From the IMG/VR virus record IMGVR_UViG_2703718832_000007, positions 1 through 33,242 of that record: a DNA stretch of 33,242 nucleotides; one strand, written 5' to 3'. Below, one piece after another: positions 1 to 10,008 of the stretch (its first letter is position 1; each line of letters starts with the position of its first letter). Position numbers and translations under genes: made by a program. The notes under the pieces are model-generated. The model ran no database searches and was not told where the DNA came from. It saw nothing but the letters and a program-made list of their open reading frames with translations. This DNA comes from a virus (Duplodnaviria > Heunggongvirae > Uroviricota > Caudoviricetes).

Positions 1-1158
1 ATGCTCACCGTTAAGCAGATTGAAGCAGCAAAGCCGAAAGAAAAACCATACCGCCTTCTCGATGGTAATGGCCTGTACCTTTATGTCCCTGTGTCAGGGA
101 AAAAGGTATGGCAGCTTCGCTACAAGATTGACGGTAAGGAAAAAATACTGACCGTCGGAAAATATCCGCTTATGACTTTGCAGGAGGCAAGAGATAAAGC
201 ATGGACCGCGAGGAAAGACATCTCGGTTGGCATCGATCCGGTAAAGGCGAAAAAGGCTTCGTCTAACAACAATTCCTTTAGTGCGATTTACAAGGAATGG
301 TACGAGCACAAGAAGCAAGTCTGGTCAGTAGGCTATGCAACTGAACTTGCCAAAATGTTTGATGACGACATTTTACCCATCATCGGCGGCCTTGAGATTC
401 AGGATATTGAGCCGATGCAACTGCTGGAAGTAATCCGCAGATTTGAAGATCGCGGCGCAATGGAGCGAGCCAACAAAGCACGCAGAAGATGCGGCGAGGT
501 TTTCCGTTACGCTATTGTCACTGGTAGGGCTAAATATAACCCGGCACCTGACCTTGCTGACGCCATGAAGGGATACCGCAAGAAGAACTTCCCGTTTCTT
601 CCTGCAGACCAGATCCCGGCATTCAACAAAGCACTGGCAACATTTTCAGGAAGTATCGTATCGCTCATTGCGACCAAAGTTTTACGCTACACAGCCCTAA
701 GAACGAAAGAGCTTCGTTCCATGCAATGGAAGAACGTCGATTTTGAAAACAGGATTATCACCATCGACGCCAGTGTGATGAAGGGACGCAAAATTCATGT
801 GGTCCCGATGTCGGACCAGGTGGTTGAACTTCTCACTACGCTAAGCTCAATCACCAAACCAGTATCAGAGTTTGTTTTTGCCGGGCGCAATGATAAGAAA
901 AAGCCAATCTGCGAGAACGCGGTATTGCTTGTGATCAAACAAATCGGCTATGAAGGTCTGGAAAGCGGTCACGGATTCAGGCATGAATTCAGCACGATTA
1001 TGAACGAGCACGAATGGCCTGCTGATGCTATTGAAGTGCAACTGGCACATGCCAACGGCGGATCTGTGCGCGGGATTTACAACCATGCTCAGTATCTCGA
1101 TAAGCGCAGAGAAATGATGCAGTGGTGGGCGGACTGGATTGATGAAAAGGTGGAGTGA
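1..1158 (+). CDS. int: Tyrosine recombinase / phage integrase, P4-type (N-terminal DUF4102-like arm-binding region plus C-terminal catalytic domain)
   Basis: 385-aa ORF with ATG start; N-terminus MLTVKQIEAAKPKEKPYRLLDGNGLYL is the typical P4-family integrase opening; C-terminal HGFRHEF...YLDKRREMMQWWADW resembles the catalytic region of tyrosine recombinases. Confidence 0.9.
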   Translation: MLTVKQIEAAKPKEKPYRLLDGNGLYLYVPVSGKKVWQLRYKIDGKEKILTVGKYPLMTLQEARDKAWTARKDISVGIDPVKAKKASSNNNSFSAIYKEWYEHKKQVWSVGYATELAKMFDDDILPIIGGLEIQDIEPMQLLEVIRRFEDRGAMERANKARRRCGEVFRYAIVTGRAKYNPAPDLADAMKGYRKKNFPFLPADQIPAFNKALATFSGSIVSLIATKVLRYTALRTKELRSMQWKNVDFENRIITIDASVMKGRKIHVVPMSDQVVELLTTLSSITKPVSEFVFAGRNDKKKPICENAVLLVIKQIGYEGLESGHGFRHEFSTIMNEHEWPADAIEVQLAHANGGSVRGIYNHAQYLDKRREMMQWWADWIDEKVE

Positions 1159-1231
1159 TCCGCCTTAACAACTATCGAATATCACAAAGCCTTGCAATCC
1201 AGTACAAAGCTTTGTGTGTCTCATTTCTGTC

Positions 1232-1621
1232 TCACATCACCGGGCAATCATCAAACTCACCAGAACGCGCATCGTTGATGATGTACGTGATCACACCGAA
1301 CAGATGCGACTCATCATCAAACAGGCTGGTAGGCTTTGTTATCTCCTCTGCCGCTCCAGTCTCCAGATTGATCAGATGTGGTTTAGGGTGGCGCTTGTAC
1401 CGCTTCACCCTGAACTCATTGTCAACTGAACAAACAAGTAACGAGCCATCAAACGGTGTCAGTGAACTGTCAACGACGAGCAAAGCGCCGTACATGATGC
1501 CTTCTCGCCAGTAAGTTTGCCCTGCCCGCATGAAGTACGTTGCCGATGGTTTGCTAATTAGCGTCTCGTCGAGCGATATGCGTTGCTCAACGTAGTCTGC
1601 TGCTGGCGATGGGAATCCCAT
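1232..1621 (-). CDS. UmuD'-like protein (LexA/S24 peptidase fold), lacking the N-terminal pro-segment, catalytic Ser position occupied by Thr
   Basis: 129-aa ORF; MGFPSPAADYVEQRISL...PSATYF aligns with E. coli UmuD from the Cys24-Gly25 cleavage site onward (UmuD CGFPSPAADYVEQRIDL...PSATYF); UmuD GDSM corresponds to GQTY here; Lys of the dyad is retained (EFRVKRY vs EFTVKKL); GAGGTG RBS 5 nt upstream of ATG. Confidence 0.7.
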   Translation of the reverse strand: MGFPSPAADYVEQRISLDETLISKPSATYFMRAGQTYWREGIMYGALLVVDSSLTPFDGSLLVCSVDNEFRVKRYKRHPKPHLINLETGAAEEITKPTSLFDDESHLFGVITYIINDARSGEFDDCPVM

Positions 1622-1638
1622 GATGCACCTCAGACAGT

Positions 1639-1658
1639 TGCTGTGTATACATACAGTA
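1639..1658. promoter_or_regulatory. LexA (SOS) box upstream of the UmuD'-like gene
   Basis: TGCTGTGTATACATACAGTA fits the CTGT-N8-ACAG LexA consensus (TACTGTATATATATACAGTA) at about 17 of 20 positions and lies 18 bp upstream of the minus-strand ATG at 1621. Confidence 0.7.
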
Positions 1659-1862
1659 TTATTGATCGGTGCAGCTGATCAACATGCAAGCGGAAATAAA
1701 TTACGCATTTCTTCTGGTACGCGCTGCTTCTAGCTTGTATGCGACTGATTGCATTTGGTAAACATGCCAATAGCAAATCACATAAGCTGGTTTGCTTTGG
1801 TGACATATCAGCGCTCAGGTGCTAGATTTCCCTCAACATTTACTCATTATCCTGAATTCATT

Positions 1863-2873
1863 ATGGATGTTTCAAAAAAACCGCAACGCGTTTACTGGGT
1901 TGACTCGCTACGTTTCATAGCTATTTTCCTTGTCTACATTGGTCATCTTGGACCAAGTGCAGGCAGGATATACAGCTTTGTTTACCTGTTTCATGTACCG
2001 CTTTTCTTTTTTATATCCGGGATGTTCTACAAATCTGGAGGCGGCATCGCGGATAATGTGAAGTCATCATTTAAAAAATTGATGATTCCTTATTTTGTGT
2101 ACTCACTTGCATCACTTATCGTCTACACGCTTTTCCTTCAGAAAGACATAGTGAGCGTGCAGCAGTACGTAATTCAGTTACTGGAAGCAAAGAGAAACTT
2201 TACTGAGTATGCAGTCCAAATGTGGTTTTTGCCGTGCATGTTCCTGATAATGATTTTTTTCCACGCCATGAAATCACTCATAAAAAGTGACATCATTGTA
2301 TTTGCTTTATGTATTGTAATGATGTCTTTGAGTGTTTATGTTCCTGACGTTCCGTCTTCAGTCGTGCCAAAGTTGCCATACTCTTTAGATAGCGCTTTCT
2401 TTTATATATCGTGGTATGCCATAGGGTATTATTGCAGAGGATGGTTTATATCTTTCTTTAGCCGTGCTGGATCTGTTCAGGTTGTTATGCACGTGCTTGC
2501 AATGGCTTTTGCTGTCATGTGCTTCTTCGGCCTGCATCACGACCCTGAGAACTATATAACATTGATAGTCGGCGGTAAGACTTACGTAATACTGTGGATG
2601 ATTCCTACTTTCCTGCTTTTCATTTCATTGATACCAATAGCAAAAATTTTAAGCGAGTATCAGCCGGTTCTTTACATGGGTAGAAACACCCTGCTGCTGT
2701 GCTGTATTGAAAGCATAGCTAAGATATCATTCATATCATTAATAGGTATTAGTGGGCATAGCCTTAACATTGGGGATGAGTATTACTCCTTCGTGTACAT
2801 ATCGGTCCTCATGTTGCTTATTTATGTGGCTAAAACAAAGCTTGATGAGTGGAAAAACAAAACCCCGGTTTGA
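1863..2873 (+). CDS. oac: O-antigen acetyltransferase, acyltransferase-3 family integral membrane protein (serotype-conversion, Oac-like)
   Basis: Multi-pass hydrophobic protein; N-terminal YWVDSLRFIAIFLVYIGH matches the acyltransferase-3 signature; AT-rich gene. The ORF track starts at a TTG at 1749; the ATG at 1863 (MDVSKKPQRVYWVD, 336 aa) is the more plausible start and is close to the length I recall for Sf6 Oac. Confidence 0.8.
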   Translation: MDVSKKPQRVYWVDSLRFIAIFLVYIGHLGPSAGRIYSFVYLFHVPLFFFISGMFYKSGGGIADNVKSSFKKLMIPYFVYSLASLIVYTLFLQKDIVSVQQYVIQLLEAKRNFTEYAVQMWFLPCMFLIMIFFHAMKSLIKSDIIVFALCIVMMSLSVYVPDVPSSVVPKLPYSLDSAFFYISWYAIGYYCRGWFISFFSRAGSVQVVMHVLAMAFAVMCFFGLHHDPENYITLIVGGKTYVILWMIPTFLLFISLIPIAKILSEYQPVLYMGRNTLLLCCIESIAKISFISLIGISGHSLNIGDEYYSFVYISVLMLLIYVAKTKLDEWKNKTPV

Positions 2874-2879
2874 CCGGGG
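2853..2879 (-). terminator. Rho-independent terminator after the tailspike gene, overlapping the 3' end of oac
   Basis: Minus strand reads CCCCGG-TCAAA-CCGGGG followed by TTTTGTTTTT. Confidence 0.55.
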
Positions 2880-2891
2880 CTTGCCGCCAAG

Positions 2892-4895
2892 CTACTTATC
2901 TGATGGTATGAACATACCGGCGCTATTGTCATGCAGACCAACGTAGCCAATGTTTGTACCGGCAGAGCAATAAACATTTATCGTCATTCCAGTAATCTCT
3001 GATTTTTTCGGTAGATCTCCACTAAATATTTCATTCAATGATATTATTTTAACATCCCATTCATCACCAAAGTTTTGTTGAGGGATTTCTAAGAATGTAT
3101 TTCCTGAAGAGGTTGATATGACAATAACTGTCCTGTTATAACCATCATATTCAGTGGATGCAATATTTATCGTGTGCCCCCCTCTACCAACAAAAACCAA
3201 GCTGCAATGTACAATTCCATGTTCAAACCTTTGGTGTATGGAAGACTGTTGAAGGTTAGTTCCGGGATATGAATTTGTCACTGCATAGTAGTCACTACCA
3301 GCATACCCACCACTCTCTTTAACCACTGCACCAGTCCATCCATCAGGGGTAGAACCTGACCAAGAATTAAACTTTGGATTCCTGATAATTGAGTATGGTG
3401 AGTACATCAGACACTGGTTGAAGGTTAACTTACCAGACGCTCTCACACCACCAAGGTCATCTTCTTTATAATATTGTTGTGCAATATCAATTTCCCAAGA
3501 ACATGAAGCACCAGCTTGATTTATAAATCCTGTATCAGTATTCCACTGTTTCGCGTTACTAAGTTGTTTTACAAAATATTTCGCTCTATTATTAAAACCT
3601 GTAGCTAAACCATGTATTCTAAGAGCATAGGAAGAATTAAGTGTATCAAAGTAACCTTTTACTATGCATCCGCGCGTTAAACCTGATTCAAAGCAGACGA
3701 CTGCATCACCAGCACCAGTTCCTCCAGAAGAAATGGCGAAGTTGTTTTCAAAATATCCATCAATTTCTATTCTATCTGAATAACCGAAAACAGATATAGC
3801 CCTGCCTTTATTCCCTTCAAATATACCATTGATGTGCATATCAAACTGGTTATTTATCGCCATTCCATCCCCACCAGTACATGCTGTTATTTTATTTACG
3901 CCATGCATGTATAGAGTGGTCCCTCTAGCAAGATAACTATCAGACCCGTTCAGGTATACCCCGGAAGTACCCCTAGCTAAAAGACTGTCTGTGTTATACC
4001 ACTCTGCATAACCAACTCCGAAGCTAAAGAAGTTATATGTTTGCCCGTTACGCAATTCGACATTTCGAATTTTATTGCGATAGCTTAAACCTCCTAACGC
4101 TATTGCAGCTGCTGGTATTTCAGGATTTGTTGTTGACTCCCACCTTACTAAACCTTTTGTGTAAGCAGGACCATCAGGAAGCATACTTTCTAGGGAAAGG
4201 TTTTCCAGAACACAATCCCATCCCATTGTAATTAGATCAACATCATTATCGTAAAGCCGGAGCTTTGTGAAGTATTTTCCGGCTCCACTTATAGAGGTGC
4301 CATCACGAGGAGTCAATCCATCTGTGATTTTATATTCACCCTCAGGAACAAACACCTGATATGATGCTGCAAGAGCGTTTTTAAAAGCATTTGTGTCATC
4401 AGTAACCCCATCACCTTTAGCGCCAAAATCCTTAACGCTAATCCAGTCTGCGTTTTTGTCATGCTGCGTGCGGCCTACTGAGTTAGTGCGAGGCTGCTTA
4501 ACCCCAACCAGTGCATCACCCATACCGTCTGCGTAGCTAGCGAGCTCCTGCCTGAACTGATCAGGGTCATACTTCAGCACATTAGGAAAATAAAACTGCT
4601 GTGCACCATACGCATCATAAACAGACATAGAATGGCCTTGCACAGTAACGAACTTGGCAATCTGTCCGTTATATACCGGATATCCAGCAGCGTTAATGAT
4701 GATTGGTTGCGAAACAGGAACGTGAGAACCGTCTTCGTTCTCTACATAAACCTGAATCTGGTTTTCAGGATTTACCGGGTCAGTGTCAATTTTTCCGATA
4801 TAAATTTTGCCATTGGCAACCGCTTTAAAAGAACGCGCCATAGTGAAGAGTTGCGAAGGCATTGATACGATCACATTGGCTGTAATGTCTGTCAT
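2892..4895 (-). CDS. Tailspike protein: P22-type head-binding N-terminal domain fused to a right-handed beta-helix (pectate-lyase-like) receptor-binding/depolymerase domain
   Basis: 667 aa; first ~110 residues ([50 protein letters not shown]...[10 protein letters not shown]) match the P22 gp9 head-binding domain; downstream [16 protein letters not shown] motif and Gly/Asn-rich repeats are typical of beta-helix glycanases; the C-terminal domain is unlike P22 gp9. Confidence 0.9.
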
Positions 4896-4950
4896 TTAAT
4901 TTGCTCCAGATACAAGGAATCACCGAAGCATGGCTACGATGAATTTTGGG

Positions 4951-4977
4951 CATAAAAAAACCCAGCCGAAGCTGGGT
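4951..4977 (-). terminator. Rho-independent terminator downstream of ant
   Basis: Minus strand reads ACCCAGC-TTCG-GCTGGGT followed by TTTTTTTAT. Confidence 0.6.
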
Positions 4978-4995
4978 TGTCGCGTTGGTTATCTG

Positions 4996-5940
4996 TCAGT
5001 AGTTATGTACTGAAGGAGGTAATTCTTTATTCTTAAGTCTCATCCATGCGGAAAGATTCGCTGGTCCGTCTGGCTCATTGATATCAACATCTCGTGTGTG
5101 ATTGATTAAAACGTCTCTCGCCATTCCGATAACATACGAGAATTCATGACCGTAGTCGTAGCATCTGCCGGAATAGTTCGATTGAACTTGTTTTAATGCC
5201 GGATACAGTTCGCGGAATAATGCCTGTGAACGGTTAGCATAATCCCATAGCCATACAAGGCTGTTTGCTTCTTTTGCAGAAAGCTCGTTTGCTTTCTTCT
5301 CTTGTTTGCCGATAAACTCGCCTTCAAGCACTACCCTGTGGATGTACTCTACGGCCAGCGGGATTTGTTCAATTGAAAGTTCATCAATGCTGTCAATACC
5401 AAAACGCTGATGAACCATATTGTATGCATCGTCATAGCGAAGTCCTTTCTTTCCTACCAGCATGTTTACTGCATCGCGTAGCGGCGTTCTTTCCTCAACA
5501 GTGGTTTTCTTGCCTTTCACATACTCGCCATGTTTGCGAATTGAAGGTAGAACTTCTGCTGTTACCCACTTGCGGAATTTGTGCGGGACCGAACCTTTAT
5601 TGACAGCATCGCGGCAGCGCAGAACCAATGTATACATACCTGATTCGCTAACAATGCTTAGATTCTGCTCACCACCAAGGGTGTAACTTAAAGTTACTCC
5701 CTTTTCATCGTCATCAAGTGCAGTAAGCGCCTTGCGTGAGTTAGTCAGGGTTAAAGCATCACAAACATCTTTTGCTACAAACCACGGCTCACCGCATTTG
5801 TTGATGACGCGGATTTCACTGTCGCCGAATTTGAAGATGGTGAAATCGTTTTGTGCCTTTGCTATACTTTTCATGTCAATATTTCCTAATCCGATTTGTT
5901 GATACCGAAGCCCTGACTGTTCCCGCAGTTGGGGCTTCAC
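4996..5940 (-). CDS. ant: Antirepressor Ant (immI region)
   Basis: 314 aa; N-terminal region [32 protein letters not shown] is Bro-N/antirepressor-like; sits directly upstream of the tailspike as P22 ant does. Confidence 0.8.
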
Positions 5941-5971
5941 TGTTTTGATTTCTTTGCCGCATCCAAGCGAA

Positions 5972-6112
5972 TCACACCGTTATCCCCTCTCTCCTCAGGC
6001 TGTCCAGCACCCGTTTAATTACTTCTGCGCTGAATGAGCGACACTCTTCCTTTGCTTTTTCTTCAAGAATTTTTTCTAGCTTCTCTGGCATACGCAGTGT
6101 TTTTACCTTCAT
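5972..6112 (-). CDS. arc: Arc-like ribbon-helix-helix repressor (below the ORF-track size cutoff)
   Basis: Hand-translated 46-aa [49 protein letters not shown]; aligns with P22 Arc (FNLRWPREVLDLVRKVAEENGRSVNSEIYQRVMESFKKEG); lies between mnt and ant, oriented like ant. Confidence 0.75.
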
Positions 6113-6217: not shown

Positions 6218-6469
6218 ATGTCTGATCGTAAGTACAAAAACCCTCAAGTGAATCTGAGGCTTCCTGTAGAGATAAAGGAACGTCTTATTGAACTGGCTGA
6301 GGCTAATTCTCGTTCATTAAATGCTGAGATGGTCGCGGCACTTGAAGCGTGGACCGAAAAAAATAAACACATTCAAGCACTAGACCTTGCAACTATAGCA
6401 TCACGATTGATAGATCTTGAACGCGATGTTGAGACGCTAAAGACCATGTATGGTAAGGATGCAAAATGA
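6218..6469 (+). CDS. mnt: Mnt-like repressor (ribbon-helix-helix)
   Basis: 83 aa, the same length as P22 Mnt; VNLRLPVEIKERLIELAEANSRSLNAEMV aligns with P22 Mnt FNFRMPMEVREKLKFRAEANGRSMNSELL. Confidence 0.85.
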   Translation: MSDRKYKNPQVNLRLPVEIKERLIELAEANSRSLNAEMVAALEAWTEKNKHIQALDLATIASRLIDLERDVETLKTMYGKDAK

Positions 6470-6675
6470 ATAAAAAACAGTTTATTAAGTCAAAAACGTC
6501 AAGCAAGGAAGAGCTAGAGAAAGAGCTAAACTCCCTGAAATATGCTCTGTGTCTGGTTTACTCAAGACTGCCAATGGAAGATAAAAACGCCATTTACAAT
6601 GAAATGATTAGCAGCCTTGATTTTAACGATAGAGACCTAGCATCCCACCTCAACAGCTTCCGCGTCCCTGAGTAA
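6466..6675 (+). CDS. Hypothetical protein, start overlaps the mnt stop (ATGA)
   Basis: 69-aa ORF; the ATGA start/stop overlap suggests translational coupling with mnt; no recognisable domain. Confidence 0.4.
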   Translation: MNKKQFIKSKTSSKEELEKELNSLKYALCLVYSRLPMEDKNAIYNEMISSLDFNDRDLASHLNSFRVPE

Positions 6676-6835
6676 TTCTGTTGCGGATTTGCTTCTTGCG
6701 GTGGTTTAGGCTGGAGAGCTTGGCTTCTGCTTCTGATATTTGCGCATCTAGATCTTTAAGCTCAAGATCTGAAAGTCGCTGGTCAAGCAGGGTTTGGTTC
6801 AACTCAATATTGTTCAGACGTTCTTCTATAGTCAT
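6650..6835 (-). CDS. Hypothetical coiled-coil protein (may be spurious; convergent overlap with the 6466-6675 ORF)
   Basis: 61-aa ORF with a weak AAGG RBS; heptad-like Leu/Glu-rich sequence. Confidence 0.3.
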   Translation of the reverse strand: MTIEERLNNIELNQTLLDQRLSDLELKDLDAQISEAEAKLSSLNHRKKQIRNRITQGRGSC

Positions 6836-6860
6836 ATTGTTACCTTAGTGGGAGATTAGT

Positions 6861-7085
6861 ATGATTTCTGCTATTTTATCGGTGCTGCTAGCGTCATTAT
6901 TCATCGGAGTGGTGTTGATCTCCCCGATGCCAATAATATCAATATTATTCATCTTGATGATCGGCTGGTTGTGGCTTAAAAAGGCAAGAAACGATTATTT
7001 TTTATCCATAAGAGATAAGCAATTGGAGCTTTTCCGCTTGGGGTACACTGGCGACTTGCCATTCTTAACATACCAAAAAAAGTAA
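6861..7085 (+). CDS. Small membrane protein, two predicted transmembrane helices
   Basis: 74 aa; GGGAG RBS about 7 nt upstream; two hydrophobic stretches (ILSVLLASLFIGVVLI and IISILFILMIGWLWL); followed by a terminator. Confidence 0.5.
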   Translation: MISAILSVLLASLFIGVVLISPMPIISILFILMIGWLWLKKARNDYFLSIRDKQLELFRLGYTGDLPFLTYQKK

Positions 7086-7090
7086 TAATC

Positions 7091-7114
7091 AAGCCGGGTC
7101 ACTCCGGCTTTTTG
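7091..7114 (+). terminator. Rho-independent terminator ending the mnt-side operon
   Basis: AAGCCGG-GTCACT-CCGGCTT followed by TTTT. Confidence 0.6.
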
Positions 7115-7464
7115 ATATGTCGCTCGCAGAACTCAACAAGTCTGCTCATTAAGTAGCAGTAAGTCTCGTTGGATCTTCCTGGTTCAACATCAACACCGAC
7201 CCTTGAGCAGATATCGAATGCCATGTGAGCGCACTCATGGGCAATAGTAGATAGTTTGCCATTGAACACGCCTATCACATGCAAAACACCATTCTCGCTG
7301 CTCATTGTATGAGACGCTCCGTTGGCATCCGAGTCCTGCACGTCCACGCCAAGTTTTTGATGCAGGCGTTGCCATTCTGGAAAGTCTCTGCAAAACACAA
7401 TCGTACCGCTCTCAAAGAGCGGTACGAGCATCTTTGGTACGTTTCCAATGTTAACTTTTTTCAT
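7099..7464 (-). CDS. Hypothetical protein with an HExxH motif (possible small ImmA/IrrE-like metallopeptidase)
   Basis: 121-aa ORF with an AGGA RBS; contains IAHECAHMAFDI (H-E-x-x-H); its last codons are encoded by the terminator hairpin of the opposite strand. Confidence 0.45.
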   Translation of the reverse strand: MKKVNIGNVPKMLVPLFESGTIVFCRDFPEWQRLHQKLGVDVQDSDANGASHTMSSENGVLHVIGVFNGKLSTIAHECAHMAFDICSRVGVDVEPGRSNETYCYLMSRLVEFCERHIKKPE

Positions 7465-7494
7465 GGTATCCTGCTCAAAACTAAGGAGGTTGGT

Positions 7495-7794
7495 GTGAAG
7501 CGATGGGTTATAGGTGCATTCTGTTTTCTAATTAGTGGTCTTGCACAATCGCAAGATAAGGATCTGAAATTTGCTAACGACATGTTAGTTACAGCTAAAG
7601 TTGCTGGTATGTGTGGAACATTTAAACAAATGTTTGCTTTTCAAGAAGCAACCCAGATGCCAGGCGGAGATGAATTTATTGAACGTTTTTTGAATACGGA
7701 AATTTCTCGCCTAGGAATGTCACTTCAAGAGTTCATGAAGTTGTGCACAGATTCTATAGAGTCATACAATAAATTAAAAAGGATGTCAGAATAG
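7495..7794 (+). CDS. Small secreted/periplasmic protein with N-terminal signal peptide
   Basis: GTG start 6 nt after an AAGGAGG RBS (the longer track ORF from 7279 is in the same frame but has no RBS); N-terminus KRWVIGAFCFLISGLAQSQD is signal-peptide-like; 99 aa. Confidence 0.5.
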   Translation: MKRWVIGAFCFLISGLAQSQDKDLKFANDMLVTAKVAGMCGTFKQMFAFQEATQMPGGDEFIERFLNTEISRLGMSLQEFMKLCTDSIESYNKLKRMSE

Positions 7795-7820: not shown

Positions 7821-7889
7821 ATGGTAACAGTCGGTTGGATTATTGTTGCCCTGCTTGTTGCTCTGTGGGCAAAGAATCGTTACTACTGA
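7821..7889 (+). CDS. 22-aa hydrophobic peptide ORF ([22 protein letters not shown])
   Basis: Hand-found; GGAGG RBS 7 nt upstream of ATG; single predicted transmembrane segment; antisense overlap with the 3' end of the gp16-like gene. Confidence 0.35.
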   Translation: MVTVGWIIVALLVALWAKNRYY

Positions 7890-10008
7890 GAAAAGCGACA
7901 ATACCAACGCGGGCTAGATTTTTCTTCTCGTCCGCTGATAGCGTATTTACCCAATCCCTATATGGTTTCACTTTCTGCATTGAAGCATCCACCGATTTCC
8001 TAGAGGCTGGAGTGCTAGCGTGACTTGCGGCAATCCTTTTTGAGAGATTTTTAAAAGCCGGAGATGCTATTAATTCATCAGCGGCAGCCATTCTTGAGTT
8101 TTTACCAGAACGGAGGAGGCTAAAGAGTACCCCTGCCGTACCGGCTCCCGGCGCTCCGATGGCAGTGGTTAGCCCCTCTGCTTTAGCCACGTCTTTTCCT
8201 ATTCCATATATACGCCCAAGCATTCCCTTCTCTCCTGCGAACTGATTCATCATCCGGTCAATTTGAGAGGAGGAATACACCTTCTCGCTGCCCACCCTTT
8301 GCATGCCAGAAGCCACCTCATAGATGTTTCTCAACCTACGCGTAGCCGGATAGCCAATTGCCCGGCTCAATGCCTGCATATTTGATTTGTTTCTTGATAG
8401 ACCTCCATACCACTTAACAAATCCAGGAACACCGAGTGACTGCCCGGGAGATTTAGCGAACGTAGTGAAAGCCCTATTCATTGCGGTGGCAACAGCTGGT
8501 TGCACCATGTCATCAGGAAGATTTGAAACCAGGCGACGGAAGTCACCGCCCTTTCCTTGAGACATGTCGACGATAGCTTGCTGCAATTGCGGCACTATTC
8601 CTTTATCCAGGTCTCTGCCAAGATTTTGAATGGCGGCTGCCTGTACTGCGAATCTCTTTCTCCCGATCTCTCTAGCTAAATTCCATGTATCCTCTGCACC
8701 ATATTTGGCAGCAGCGGCTCCCTGATCTTGTATCAGTGCGCTTTCAAGAATTCCAAGGTGCCGAGCGTCGATGCCGCTATATGGCCCTTTATCCATCTCT
8801 TTGCCAAGAGCCCTTCCAACCTGCCGTCGAACTGCATCAAGAAGACCATAAGTCGGGGCGGTGTTTGGGTCTATTTGTTCCAAGGTCTTTGACAGTTGAG
8901 GATATAGCGATTTTAGTTTTTCTAGCCCACCGACATCATCTGCAATATCCTCAATGGCGTTAGTGGTATGGGAGGTATCTACGGTAGCTCTGGTTGGAAT
9001 TTTTGCTCTAATTTGATTGTATAGAGTGTCTTCTTGGCGCTTCAGGTTTGATCTTAACTCCTCATAAGAGCTTTTTACCTTTTGATTGATAAAGTCCTTA
9101 TCAACGCTCCCACCAAAATCATTAATAAATTTATCTGCCTGCTCTCCAAGCCTACTAATGGCCTCTCGCTGTGCGTGGAACAGTTTATTACCAGGGGTTG
9201 CAGCTAAAGCATTTTCAAACGCGCGGTAAGAAGGGTTGCTGGAGTACATGCCGGGAGTTAAGGCATCCTCTATCCCAAGATTGCGGGCGGCCTGTAGCAC
9301 AGAATCATCTGGTGAAACAGCTTCCGCGAGAGCATTCAAACCAGATCTGTTTCCTGTTATTGGATTCACATCTGTAGCTTTCGTTGCAACCTTCGCCATT
9401 CCACTAAGTTCAGATGCCTGAGACATTTCTGCCGATGGAGGCCTAAACCTCTTCGTAACCGCACTGGCTGCTTTACTAATCACTGGAGATGCCAATTCAG
9501 CAATTGGACCAGCGGCAGCACCTATAGTCGCCCCTGTAGTTACATTGCCACCGGTTCCGTTAGCAACAACACCACCTTCAACCGCACCAAGCCCTGCGGC
9601 GGCAGCCAGCCTTGCCGCCCCTTTCGGAACCTGAGAAATAATCCCACCACCACTAACAAATGGCGCTGCTTGTCCAACGAACTCACCAACATCTTGTGCG
9701 GTTGATGGTTTTGCCGCTAACTTCTGCTGTAGAGACTGAATTGCGGCTTGCTCTTCTGGTGTCATATCCTGAAACAGGCCAACACCTTTACCAACATCCA
9801 TCAATCCACTGAGAACGCCATACATAAAACGGTCGAAACCGTTAGCATTATTAACAACATTTTCCTGTCTGGAATTTTCCTCTGGTGAAACCAAAGGAGA
9901 TTGCTGCTGTTCTGGTTGGGAATCAAGCACAAAGCCATCAGGAAGTTGTGAGTTATCAGGCTGTTCATCCAGAACAAACCCCTCTGGTAAACCTACATTG
10001 GTTGCCAT
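7840..10008 (-). CDS. Ejection (injection) protein, P22 gp16-like
   Basis: 722-aa Ala/Gly/Gln-rich protein occupying the last position in the conserved P22 order gp7-gp20-gp16. Confidence 0.75.

What the first reader, a model, noticed from the sequence alone, without database searches (positions are those of the whole stretch)
1863..4895. Chimeric tailspike paired with an adjacent O-antigen acetyltransferase
The tailspike keeps the P22-type head-binding N-terminal domain but carries a different beta-helix receptor domain with the [16 protein letters not shown] motif, so its glycan specificity is probably distinct from P22 gp9. Immediately downstream lies an oac-like acyltransferase-3 gene that would modify the host O-antigen, as in Sf6. 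The pairing suggests the phage recognises an O-antigen that its own lysogenic-conversion gene then masks.
Basis: partly seen in the sequence, partly recalled or inferred. Interest (0 to 1): 0.45.

Follow-up and report, generated by a model that had tools for sequence, protein, structure and literature searches.

The report
Prophage tailspike with paired surface-sugar acetyltransferase
An E. coli P22-like prophage carries a tailspike with a rare, uncharacterised receptor domain and, facing it tail-to-tail, a membrane acyltransferase that probably masks that receptor; this is a well-known kind of arrangement, but here the two genes also occur together in unrelated phage types.

Summary
Window 2892-4895 (- strand) encodes a 667-aa tailspike: a P22-type head-binding domain (residues 1-113) followed by a pectate-lyase-like beta-helix domain that does not match P22 gp9. 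Window 1863-2873 (+ strand) encodes a 336-aa acyltransferase-3 protein with no SGNH domain.

Two corrections:
- The genes are convergent, 18 bp apart, and not co-transcribed.
- "oac-like" is true only for Pfam family and gene order. BLASTP against Sf6 Oac gives E 0.07.

The window is an E. coli prophage at tRNA argW. Its integrase is 99% identical to that of Sf6, and its gene order matches Sf6 and BTP1, where receptor masking has been shown experimentally. The kind is therefore known.

What is new:
- The receptor domain and the acyltransferase are absent from 5,426 complete E. coli genomes and from all deposited phages.
- A 2.6-kb block (window 1893-4507) holding exactly receptor domain plus acyltransferase recurs in a T7-like prophage of Enterobacter asburiae, with equal divergence in both genes.
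- 7 of 8 independent loci of this receptor-domain family have a convergent acyltransferase, against 2 of 8 control loci.
- The tailspike terminator lies inside the 3' end of the acyltransferase gene.

The target glycan and the masking function are inferred, not shown.

The parts
2892..4895 (-). Tailspike gene, 667 aa, intact ORF
   Evidence: ORF. Pfam Head_binding and Pect-lyase_RHGA_epim. 100% identical to NCBI E. coli protein P0001.
4557..4895 (-). P22-type head-binding (anchor) domain, residues 1-113
   Evidence: PF09008 E 1.8e-66. DNA 88-97% identical to hundreds of E. coli prophages and to HK620, CUS-3 and Sf6. 97-98% protein identity to L019 and L020 tailspikes over residues 1-120.
2892..4547 (-). 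Receptor-binding domain (residues about 117-667): beta-helix plus C-terminal part. A rare family with no characterised member.
   Evidence: Only 8 proteins at E<1e-160 among 5.8 billion clusters. No full-length match in deposited phages. No DNA match in 5,426 complete E. coli genomes. The PDB profile search matches only the N-terminal cap. Foldseek hits are all beta-helix depolymerases or tailspikes, but at TM 0.25-0.38 on a low-confidence model.
4383..4430 (-). [16 protein letters not shown] motif (residues 156-171), the generic first-rung cap of PF12708 beta-helices
   Evidence: Position. Shared with the Sf6 tailspike, phi29 gp12, GH55 and AlgE epimerases.
1863..2873 (+). AT3-only membrane acyltransferase, 336 aa; the putative receptor-modifying conversion gene
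   Evidence: PF01757 at 75.7 bits. R17-X10-H28 and VPLFFFISG are conserved. About 9-10 hydrophobic segments. dN/dS 0.068 against L009. The NCBI annotation of the same contig also aa.
2860..2882 (-). Intrinsic-terminator hairpin for the tailspike transcript. Its loop is the acyltransferase stop codon, and its T-run lies in the last codons of the acyltransferase gene.
   Evidence: Terminator scan: 10-pair stem with 6 GC pairs, then TGTTTTTCC. The hairpin and its position are conserved in L003, L009 and L015.
1893..4507 (.). The 2.6-kb block (receptor domain plus acyltransferase) shared with a T7-like prophage of Enterobacter asburiae; the mobile cassette
   Evidence: One blastn HSP at 70% identity. 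Identity is a uniform 61-82% across the block and drops to chance level in the flanks. GC is 0.37-0.42 across most of the block (rising to about 0.45 at its tailspike-side end) against 0.46-0.50 for the int/HumD flank.
1800..1828 (+). Sigma-70-like promoter candidate upstream of the acyltransferase ATG (consensus match only)
   Evidence: GTGACA-17-TAGATT with an extended-10 TG. Promoter-like sites are not enriched over shuffles in this region.
1232..1621 (-). HumD-family (UmuD'-like) S24 peptidase gene between the acyltransferase and int; an accessory gene, not part of the pair
   Evidence: NCBIfam NF051876 E 7.2e-66. Recurs beside acyltransferase genes in L005/L006, L014 and L019.
1..1158 (+). 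IntS-type integrase; prophage end next to tRNA argW
   Evidence: 99% identical to Sf6 Int. tRNA-Arg(CCT) lies 162 bp upstream of int in the source contig L002.
4996..5874 (-). Antirepressor Ant, upstream of the tailspike, followed by a terminator at 4959-4978
   Evidence: Bro-N and P22_AR_C. 292-aa gene call in L002. Terminator.

Best explanation
This is the receptor module of a P22-like (Lederbergvirus-type) E. coli prophage integrated at tRNA argW.

The tailspike uses a conserved P22-type head-binding domain to attach to the virion. It uses a rare beta-helix domain to bind, and probably cleave, a host surface polysaccharide. That polysaccharide is most likely the O-antigen.

The convergent AT3-only acyltransferase is probably expressed from its own promoter in the lysogen. 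It would move an acyl group (probably acetyl) across the inner membrane onto that same polysaccharide. The modified glycan would then no longer be bound or cut by this tailspike. That would protect the lysogen's own glycan from tailspike released on induction, and block superinfection by phages carrying the same receptor domain.

Receptor domain and acyltransferase form a portable two-gene cassette. It is exchanged between phage backbones by recombination at the anchor/receptor-domain junction and upstream of the acyltransferase gene. The two genes are physically interlocked, because the tailspike terminator lies in the 3' end of the acyltransferase gene.

Shown: gene identities, gene order, cassette sharing, purifying selection. 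Inferred: the glycan target, the acetyl donor, and the masking effect.
For: Domain calls:
- Head_binding, Pect-lyase and Acyl_transf_3, all above the Pfam cut-offs.
- AT3 catalytic-core motifs R-X10-H and FFxISG are present (motif definitions from PMC9558356).

Context:
- The source is E. coli contig LONS01000044.1, a prophage next to argW/yfdC/mlaA.
- Int is 99% identical to Sf6 Int.
- The gene order equals Sf6 tailspike / oac / int.

Experimental precedent for the mechanism:
- Sf6 Oac acetylation hinders the Sf6 endorhamnosidase (PMC9558356).
- BTP1 GtrC, an AT3 acetyltransferase convergent to the tailspike, is necessary and sufficient for protection from BTP1, and prevents tailspike-dependent O-antigen shortening (PMC4413052).

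Evidence that the two genes are coupled:
- E. asburiae L003 is a prophage whose tailspike has a Phage_T7_tail anchor. Its receptor domain is 77% identical and its convergent AT3 78% identical, with the same 18-bp gap. These lie in one DNA block, window 1893-4507. dN is equal in the two genes: 0.171 and 0.174.
- L009 and L015 show the same pair on other anchors.
- The sister clade of the receptor domain (L004, L005/L006, L007) always has a convergent AT3-SGNH gene instead.
- Overall 7 of 8 loci have an acyltransferase, against 2 of 8 control E. coli P22-like tailspike loci. Fisher two-sided p = 0.04.
- AT3 dN/dS is 0.068.
- The conserved terminator hairpin spans the AT3 stop codon.
Against: - There is no direct evidence for the glycan target. 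It could be a capsule, as in CUS-3.
- The acyltransferase has no significant BLASTP similarity to Sf6 Oac. It lacks the RXXR motif that is essential in Oac; the equivalent positions read S-F-K-K.
- Close relatives of this AT3 also occur away from phages, in the Pseudescherichia chromosome next to a fimbrial operon. They also occur beside a different, esterase-type tailspike. The AT3 is therefore not tied exclusively to this receptor domain.
- The space between tailspike and int is a general site for conversion genes. In the 8 controls, 2 had an acyltransferase and 1 had gtr genes. Adjacency alone is weak evidence.
- One locus of the family (L010) has no acyltransferase.
- Divergence of the two genes is decoupled in L009 and L015, so the pair is also reshuffled.
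- The structure models are low-confidence (pLDDT 57 and 63) and no catalytic residues could be assigned.
- The statistics rest on very few loci, which were not sampled at random.
Confidence: 0.7

Rival explanations
1. Same architecture, but the receptor is a capsular or other exopolysaccharide (K-antigen, colanic acid, ECA) rather than the O-antigen. The acyltransferase then modifies that polymer, as NeoO does for the K1 capsule in the CUS-3 prophage.
For: AT3 proteins acylate capsule, ECA and EPS as well as O-antigen (PMC9558356). CUS-3 shares the anchor and antirepressor DNA with this window (H3). The best PHROG is labelled 'colanic acid degradation', though only residues 1-180 match. The same receptor domain occurs in both E. 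coli and Enterobacter hosts.
Against: The End_N_terminal (endosialidase) hit is below threshold: 17.9 bits against 26.3. Most characterised E. coli, Shigella and Salmonella P22-like tailspikes target O-antigen (PMC10408124). The PHROG match does not cover the receptor domain.
Confidence: 0.18
2. The acyltransferase is an independent moron that benefits the host (serum resistance, antigenic variation). It sits next to the tailspike only because the region between tailspike and int is a permissive insertion site, and it has no functional relation to this tailspike's specificity.
For: The locus is a general hot spot. Among 8 other E. coli prophages, 2 carry unrelated acyltransferases and 1 carries gtr genes there. 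A HumD moron also sits in this region. AT3 relatives exist in non-phage chromosomal contexts. Divergence of receptor domain and AT3 is decoupled in L009 and L015.
Against: The pair recurs in T7-like prophages, where the acyltransferase is inserted between the tail fibre and the lysis genes. That is a different backbone, not the P22 hot spot. A single contiguous homology block with equal dN in both genes is shared with L003. Each receptor-domain clade keeps its own acyltransferase type. 7 of 8 loci against 2 of 8 controls.
Confidence: 0.1
3. The tailspike requires the acylated glycan as its receptor, so the prophage enzyme creates rather than masks the receptor.
For: Some phage tailspikes recognise O-acetylated O-antigens (own knowledge: phage G7C gp63.1 is a deacetylase). 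In L014 a related AT3 sits next to a tailspike with a GDSL-esterase domain.
Against: There is no selective logic for a prophage to make its own lysogen adsorb sibling virions. The window tailspike has a pectate-lyase-type beta-helix, not an esterase domain. All experimentally studied cases point the other way.
Confidence: 0.02

Closest known systems
Shigella phage Sf6: tailspike gp14, Oac (gp15), Int
   Same: Same backbone type and the same integrase (99% identity). Same order and orientation: tailspike, terminator hairpin, convergent AT3-only acyltransferase of about 335 aa, then int. The tailspike N-terminal 213 residues are 63% identical.
   Different: Beyond about residue 213 the receptor domain is unrelated to the Sf6 endorhamnosidase. 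The acyltransferase shares only the Pfam family with Oac (22% identity, E 0.07) and lacks RXXR. A HumD gene is inserted between the acyltransferase and int. The intergenic gap is 18 bp with the hairpin overlapping the stop codon, whereas Sf6 has a free-standing intergenic hairpin.
Salmonella prophage BTP1: tailspike and GtrC(BTP1)/OafB-type acetyltransferase
   Same: A P22-like tailspike convergent with an AT3-family acetyltransferase located between tailspike and int. This is the experimentally shown model in which the enzyme protects the O-antigen from the prophage's own tailspike and blocks superinfection (PMC4413052).
   Different: BTP1 GtrC is described with an acyl_transf_3 domain in its first 360 residues plus a C-terminal domain and aligns with the N-terminus of OafA; the AT3 review treats this enzyme type together with the AT3-SGNH proteins OafA/OafB. 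That is the type found with the sister clade of this receptor domain (L004-L007), not the AT3-only type in the window. The BTP1 tailspike is 70% identical to P22 gp9, while the window's receptor domain is unrelated to gp9.
E. coli K1 prophage CUS-3: endosialidase tailspike and NeoO
   Same: An argW-integrated P22-like prophage whose anchor and ant DNA is 94.5% identical to the window (H3). Own knowledge: an O-acetyltransferase for the tailspike's receptor is encoded near the tailspike.
   Different: Own knowledge: NeoO is a hexapeptide-repeat cytoplasmic acetyltransferase, not AT3, and the receptor is the polysialic acid capsule. The endosialidase N-terminal Pfam hit in the window is below threshold.
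Modular receptor-domain exchange among E. coli tailspikes (Pas et al. 2023, PMC10408124)
   Same: The anchor/receptor-domain junction at about residue 120 acts as the exchange point. The same receptor domain is found on Lederbergvirus, T7-type and Tail_spike_N anchors. [quoted passage not shown]
   Different: In the passages read (abstract and term-matched excerpts), that work treats the modification gene as a caveat for serotype prediction. The excerpts read did not mention co-transfer of receptor domain plus modification gene, though the paper was not read in full. This receptor-domain subtype is not among deposited phages.

Membership tests
P22-like (Lederbergvirus) tailspike | N-terminal head-binding domain (PF09008) | tested here: met
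   E 1.8e-66, full-length match 1-113/113. Matches P22 and Sf6 tailspike chains over residues 1-117.
P22-like (Lederbergvirus) tailspike | Genomic position after ant/immI and the ejection-protein genes in a P22-type virion module | tested here: met
   Ant, Arc, Inj_translocase, P22_gp7, P22_Tail-4 and P22 coat protein lie upstream in L001/L002.
P22-like (Lederbergvirus) tailspike | Trimeric right-handed beta-helix receptor domain with glycanase activity | tested here: inconclusive
   PF12708 hit at 48.7 bits. The AF2 monomer models are mostly beta-strand but have pLDDT 57 and 63. Foldseek hits are only beta-helix depolymerases, at low TM scores. Trimer formation and enzymatic activity cannot be tested here.
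P22 gp9 endorhamnosidase receptor domain | Sequence similarity to gp9 beyond the head-binding domain | tested here: not met
   P22 tailspike chains align only to query residues 1-117. The PDB profile search gives no gp9 match in the receptor domain.
Acyltransferase-3 (AT3, PF01757) carbohydrate O-acyltransferases | Pfam model above the gathering score | tested here: met
   75.7 bits against a cut-off of 31, residues 11-279.
Acyltransferase-3 (AT3, PF01757) carbohydrate O-acyltransferases | R/K-X10-H motif in TM1 (PMC9558356) | tested here: met
   R17-X10-H28. H28 is invariant across 7 aligned AT3 proteins, including Sf6 Oac.
Acyltransferase-3 (AT3, PF01757) carbohydrate O-acyltransferases | Multi-pass membrane topology (about 10 TM segments) | tested here: inconclusive
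   A crude Kyte-Doolittle scan gives 9-10 hydrophobic segments. No dedicated topology predictor was available.
Sf6 Oac-type O-antigen acetyltransferase (AT3-only) | AT3-only architecture of about 330 aa with no SGNH domain | tested here: met
   336 aa, and PF01757 is the only Pfam family found. The AT3-SGNH neighbours in L004, L007 and L019 do show PF19040.
Sf6 Oac-type O-antigen acetyltransferase (AT3-only) | RXXR motif in the first cytoplasmic loop (essential in Oac) | tested here: not met
   Oac R73-A-R-R76 aligns with S69-F-K71-K72. Basic residues are kept only at the last two positions.
Sf6 Oac-type O-antigen acetyltransferase (AT3-only) | Significant pairwise similarity to Oac | tested here: not met
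   BLASTP E 0.07, 22% identity over 172 residues. The best phage relative is the SfII acyltransferase at 29%.
Sf6 Oac-type O-antigen acetyltransferase (AT3-only) | O-acetylation of the O-antigen repeat unit | not testable with these tools
   Needs LPS chemistry (NMR or MS) on lysogen against non-lysogen.
Tailspike-linked lysogenic-conversion module (Sf6 / BTP1 type) | Conversion gene between tailspike and int/att, convergent to the tailspike, in a temperate phage | tested here: met
   Order int / HumD / AT3 / tailspike with an 18-bp convergent junction. Prophage at argW. Identical layout in Sf6.
Tailspike-linked lysogenic-conversion module (Sf6 / BTP1 type) | The modification blocks the phage's own tailspike and superinfection | not testable with these tools
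   Only indirect support: co-transfer and enrichment.

The most novel reading that the evidence does not exclude
Receptor domain plus matching acyltransferase form a self-contained 'recognise-and-mask' cassette. It moves as one unit between unrelated temperate phage backbones: P22-type, T7-type and Tail_spike_N-type anchors. Linkage is reinforced by an interlocked terminator. A temperate phage that switches host glycan would thereby acquire the matching self-immunity gene in the same recombination event. Each receptor-domain clade keeps its own acyltransferase architecture (AT3-only or AT3-SGNH), which would reflect specificity matching.
Probability: 0.5. Interest if true: 0.55.

Novelty: new member of a known kind. 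Interest (0 to 1): 0.35.

Why it matters
The general principle is textbook phage biology, shown for Sf6, BTP1, P22 and CUS-3: a temperate phage modifies the glycan that its own tailspike recognises. The window adds a new member, not a new kind.

Modest added value:
1. A receptor-domain subtype and an AT3-only subfamily with no characterised relative. Both are absent from all complete E. coli genomes and deposited phages. This points to a rare or unusual surface glycan shared by some E. coli and Enterobacter strains.
2. Sequence-level evidence that recognition and masking genes can be inherited as one recombination unit across phage families. That bears on predicting host range and serotype from prophage receptor-binding proteins, and on engineering tailspikes.
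3. A naturally matched tailspike/AT3-only pair. This could serve as a simple assay system for the unresolved question of how AT3-only enzymes work without an SGNH partner.

Tried and rejected
- Near-identity DNA search. Only the head-binding domain and ant match phages or complete E. coli genomes. Distant blastn of the cassette against E. coli genomes found nothing.
- tblastn against deposited phages. No full-length receptor-domain relative was found, and the AT3 best hit was SfII at 29%.
- NCBIfam gave no family for either protein. PHROGs gave none for the AT3, and only anchor-region matches for the tailspike.
- PDB sequence and profile searches. Nothing beyond the beta-helix cap for the tailspike, and nothing for the AT3.
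- Two AlphaFold2 runs, full length and receptor domain only, each with an 8-sequence alignment. pLDDT was 57 and 63. This is too poor to assign catalytic residues or a nearest solved tailspike. Foldseek confirmed only the generic fold class.
- The search for related loci for the receptor domain in GTDB species representatives, IMG/VR and JGI metagenomes found no relatives.
- A literature search for the assembly accession, to learn the host serotype, returned no paper. The O-serogroup of the host could not be determined because only this contig is accessible.
- Rejected: the TTG-1749 and ATG-1764 starts for the acyltransferase (374 and 369 aa). Homologues are 333-338 aa, homology with L003 starts at residue 9, and the promoter-like site at 1800-1828 lies downstream of those starts.
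- Rejected: an endosialidase reading. End_N_terminal scores 17.9 bits, below the cut-off of 26.3.
Full report
**What is there**

The window is 100% identical to E. coli contig LONS01000044.1 (GCA_001575965.1), a P22-like prophage. In the source contig, tRNA-Arg(CCT), which is argW, lies 162 bp upstream of int. It is followed by yfdC, mlaA and fadL.

Gene order in the window:

| Coordinates | Strand | Gene | Evidence |
|---|---|---|---|
| 1-1158 | + | IntS-type integrase | 99% identical to Sf6 Int |
| 1232-1621 | - | HumD-family S24 peptidase | NF051876, E 7e-66 |
| 1863-2873 | + | Acyltransferase-3 protein, 336 aa | |
| 2892-4895 | - | Tailspike, 667 aa | |
| 4996-5874/5940 | - | Antirepressor Ant | |

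Further along are the Arc/Mnt region and the P22-type ejection and virion genes.

**Checking the observation**

- Tailspike: Pfam Head_binding covers residues 1-113 (E 1.8e-66). Pect-lyase_RHGA_epim covers residues 151-369 (48.7 bits against a cut-off of 27).
- The motif [16 protein letters not shown] is at residues 156-171.
- P22 gp9 structures align only to residues 1-117, so the receptor domain is not gp9.
- Acyltransferase: Acyl_transf_3 at 75.7 bits against a cut-off of 31.

Three corrections are needed:

1. The two genes are convergent and 18 bp apart. They are not in the same transcriptional direction.
2. The motif is the generic cap of PF12708-type beta-helices. It is shared with the Sf6 tailspike, phi29 gp12, GH55 glucanases and AlgE epimerases, so it carries no information on specificity.
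3. Similarity to the Sf6 tailspike continues to about residue 213 (63% identity). Similarity to other E. coli prophage tailspikes stops at about residue 120 (97-98% identity). Mosaic junctions therefore differ between partners.

**How unusual the two genes are**

- At the DNA level only the anchor and ant match deposited phages and complete E. coli genomes: 1,160 of 5,426 genomes.
- The receptor-domain-plus-acyltransferase stretch has no match in those 5,426 genomes, even with sensitive blastn.
- It has no full-length relative in 50,697 phage records.
- In a 5.8-billion-cluster protein database the receptor domain has only eight close relatives (58-100% identity). All other hits cover only the cap region.
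- There are no relatives in GTDB species representatives, IMG/VR or JGI metagenomes.
- GC is 0.37-0.42 across most of the block, rising to about 0.45 at its tailspike-side end, against 0.46-0.50 for the int/HumD flank.
- The acyltransferase has relatives at 48-96% identity, mostly unnamed. It has no NCBIfam or PHROG family and no solved relative.

**Relation to Sf6 Oac**

Gene order and orientation are the same as in Sf6: tailspike, hairpin, convergent 333-aa Oac, then int. Sequence similarity is not significant: BLASTP E 0.07, 22% identity.

The AT3 core motifs defined in the AT3 review (PMC9558356) are partly present:
- R17-X10-H28 and the VPLFFFISG block are conserved.
- The Oac RXXR motif aligns with S-F-K-K.

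This is an AT3-only enzyme of a different subfamily. It is not an Oac orthologue.

**The pairing is more than adjacency**

I looked up the genomic context of every close receptor-domain relative.

| Group | Loci | Anchor / backbone | Receptor-domain identity | Convergent neighbour |
|---|---|---|---|---|
| Clade A | window with L001/L002; L003; L009; L015 | P22-type; E. asburiae prophage with Phage_T7_tail anchor; Tail_spike_N; T7-type | 73-81% pairwise | AT3-only gene of this subfamily, always 18 bp from the tailspike stop. Identity to the window's AT3: 78% (L003), 96% (L009), 60% (L015) |
| Clade B | L004; L005/L006; L007 | T7-like; P22-type; P22-type | 55-64% to clade A, 77-80% among themselves | 606-633-aa AT3-SGNH gene, 71-86% identical among themselves |

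- The clade B acyltransferases have no BLAST similarity to the window's enzyme.
- One locus of a third lineage, L010, ends at argW directly after the tailspike and has no acyltransferase.
- The tally is 7 of 8 independent loci.

As a control I read eight other E. coli P22-like tailspike loci carrying different receptor domains:
- Two have an AT3 gene there (L019, L020).
- One has gtrABC-like genes (L021).
- Five have nothing.

Fisher two-sided p = 0.04. The sample is small and not random, so this is supportive only.

**Cassette boundaries and history**

- Against L003, one blastn alignment runs from window 1893 to 4507. That is from 30 nt inside the acyltransferase gene to tailspike residue about 129.
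- Identity is a uniform 61-82% across this block and at chance level outside it.
- Non-synonymous divergence is the same in the two genes: dN 0.171 for the AT3 and 0.174 for the receptor domain.
- The rest of L003 is a T7-type prophage: nozzle, SLT internal virion protein, T7-type terminase, then lysis genes after the acyltransferase.
- This is what co-transfer of the pair as one unit predicts.

The pair is also reshuffled within its family:
- Against L009, the acyltransferase is 89-96% identical at the DNA level, but the receptor domain only 54-74%. The breakpoint is near the tailspike 3' end.
- In L015 the reverse holds.

The acyltransferase is under strong purifying selection (dN/dS 0.068 against L009).

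**An interlocked terminator**

- The terminator scan finds a 10-pair hairpin on the tailspike strand at 2882-2860, followed by TGTTTTTCC.
- Its loop is the acyltransferase stop codon. Its T-run is the complement of the last acyltransferase codons.
- Hairpin and arrangement are conserved in all four clade A cassettes.
- Clade B and Sf6 have a free intergenic hairpin instead.
- A sigma-70-like site at 1800-1828 precedes the acyltransferase ATG. It is a consensus match only.

**Fold**

- Two AlphaFold2 models were poor, with pLDDT 57 and 63.
- Foldseek against the PDB returned only right-handed beta-helix depolymerases and tailspikes: Klebsiella phage depolymerases, CBA120 TSP2, AlgE epimerases and polygalacturonases. 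TM scores were 0.25-0.38.
- This supports the fold class only. I could not assign hydrolase against lyase, or catalytic residues.

**Mechanism**

- Shown elsewhere: in Sf6, Oac acetylation hinders the Sf6 endorhamnosidase and gives immunity to superinfection (PMC9558356).
- Shown elsewhere: in BTP1, the convergent AT3 acetyltransferase GtrC is necessary and sufficient for protection from BTP1, and prevents tailspike-dependent O-antigen shortening (PMC4413052).
- Inferred for the window: the same logic applies. The glycan is most likely O-antigen, but a capsule is not excluded.

**Verdict**

This is a new member of a known kind. The added finding is that receptor domain and acyltransferase behave as a portable, physically interlocked two-gene unit across phage backbones. 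That deserves a systematic survey, but here it rests on a handful of loci.

Noticed in passing
L014:7376-11406 (Enterobacter asburiae GCA_016771095.1): A siphovirus-like prophage carries HumD, an AT3 (55% identical to the window's) and a convergent Tail_spike_N tailspike. The tailspike body has GDSL/SGNH esterase motifs (Lipase_GDSL at 24.2 bits, just above the cut-off). An esterase-type tailspike therefore sits beside an acyltransferase, which raises the question of whether that phage removes what its prophage adds.
   Followed up: partly
window 1232-1621 (- strand); also L005:11553-11939, L006:5814-6200, L014:7376-7765, L019:323-712: A HumD-family (UmuD'-like) S24 peptidase gene recurs directly beside the acyltransferase. 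It is 67-69% identical across loci whose tailspike receptor domains and acyltransferases are unrelated to one another.
   Followed up: partly
L010:2719-2990: In the third lineage of this receptor-domain family (Tail_spike_N anchor) the tailspike is the last prophage gene. tRNA-Arg(CCT) lies 197 nt downstream and there is no acyltransferase. This is the one exception to the pairing.
   Followed up: yes
L011:8001-10045, L012:216-2260, L013:191-2235 (Pseudescherichia): Relatives of the window's acyltransferase (54% identity) occur as two tandem AT3 genes in a non-phage chromosomal context next to a chaperone-usher fimbrial operon.
   Followed up: no
window 7840-10008 (- strand) against L001:5609-7456: The 722-aa ejection protein in the gp16 position has no Pfam hit. 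The sibling prophage L001 is 98.6% identical over window 1-5975 but has a 615-aa PF26808 (P22 gp16) protein in that position. This is a module swap between near-identical prophages.
   Followed up: no
window 1749-1862: The acyltransferase ORF is open upstream to TTG 1749 and ATG 1764. One gene caller used the 369-aa form (L001). Homologue lengths and the start of homology favour ATG 1863.
   Followed up: yes
L003:10001-15885 (E. asburiae CP129514): The T7-type prophage carrying the cassette abuts the same yfdC-mlaA-fadL neighbourhood as the E. coli P22-like prophage, but ARAGORN finds no tRNA gene at that junction.
   Followed up: partly
window 6466-7794: Between the Arc/Mnt genes and the ejection-protein genes lie several small ORFs on both strands (69, 61, 74, 121 and 171 aa) with no credible Pfam family (only one sub-threshold DUF3847 hit on the 61-aa ORF). 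L002's gene calls include the 69-, 61-, 74- and 121-aa ORFs but not the 171-aa one. This is the variable immI accessory region.
   Followed up: no
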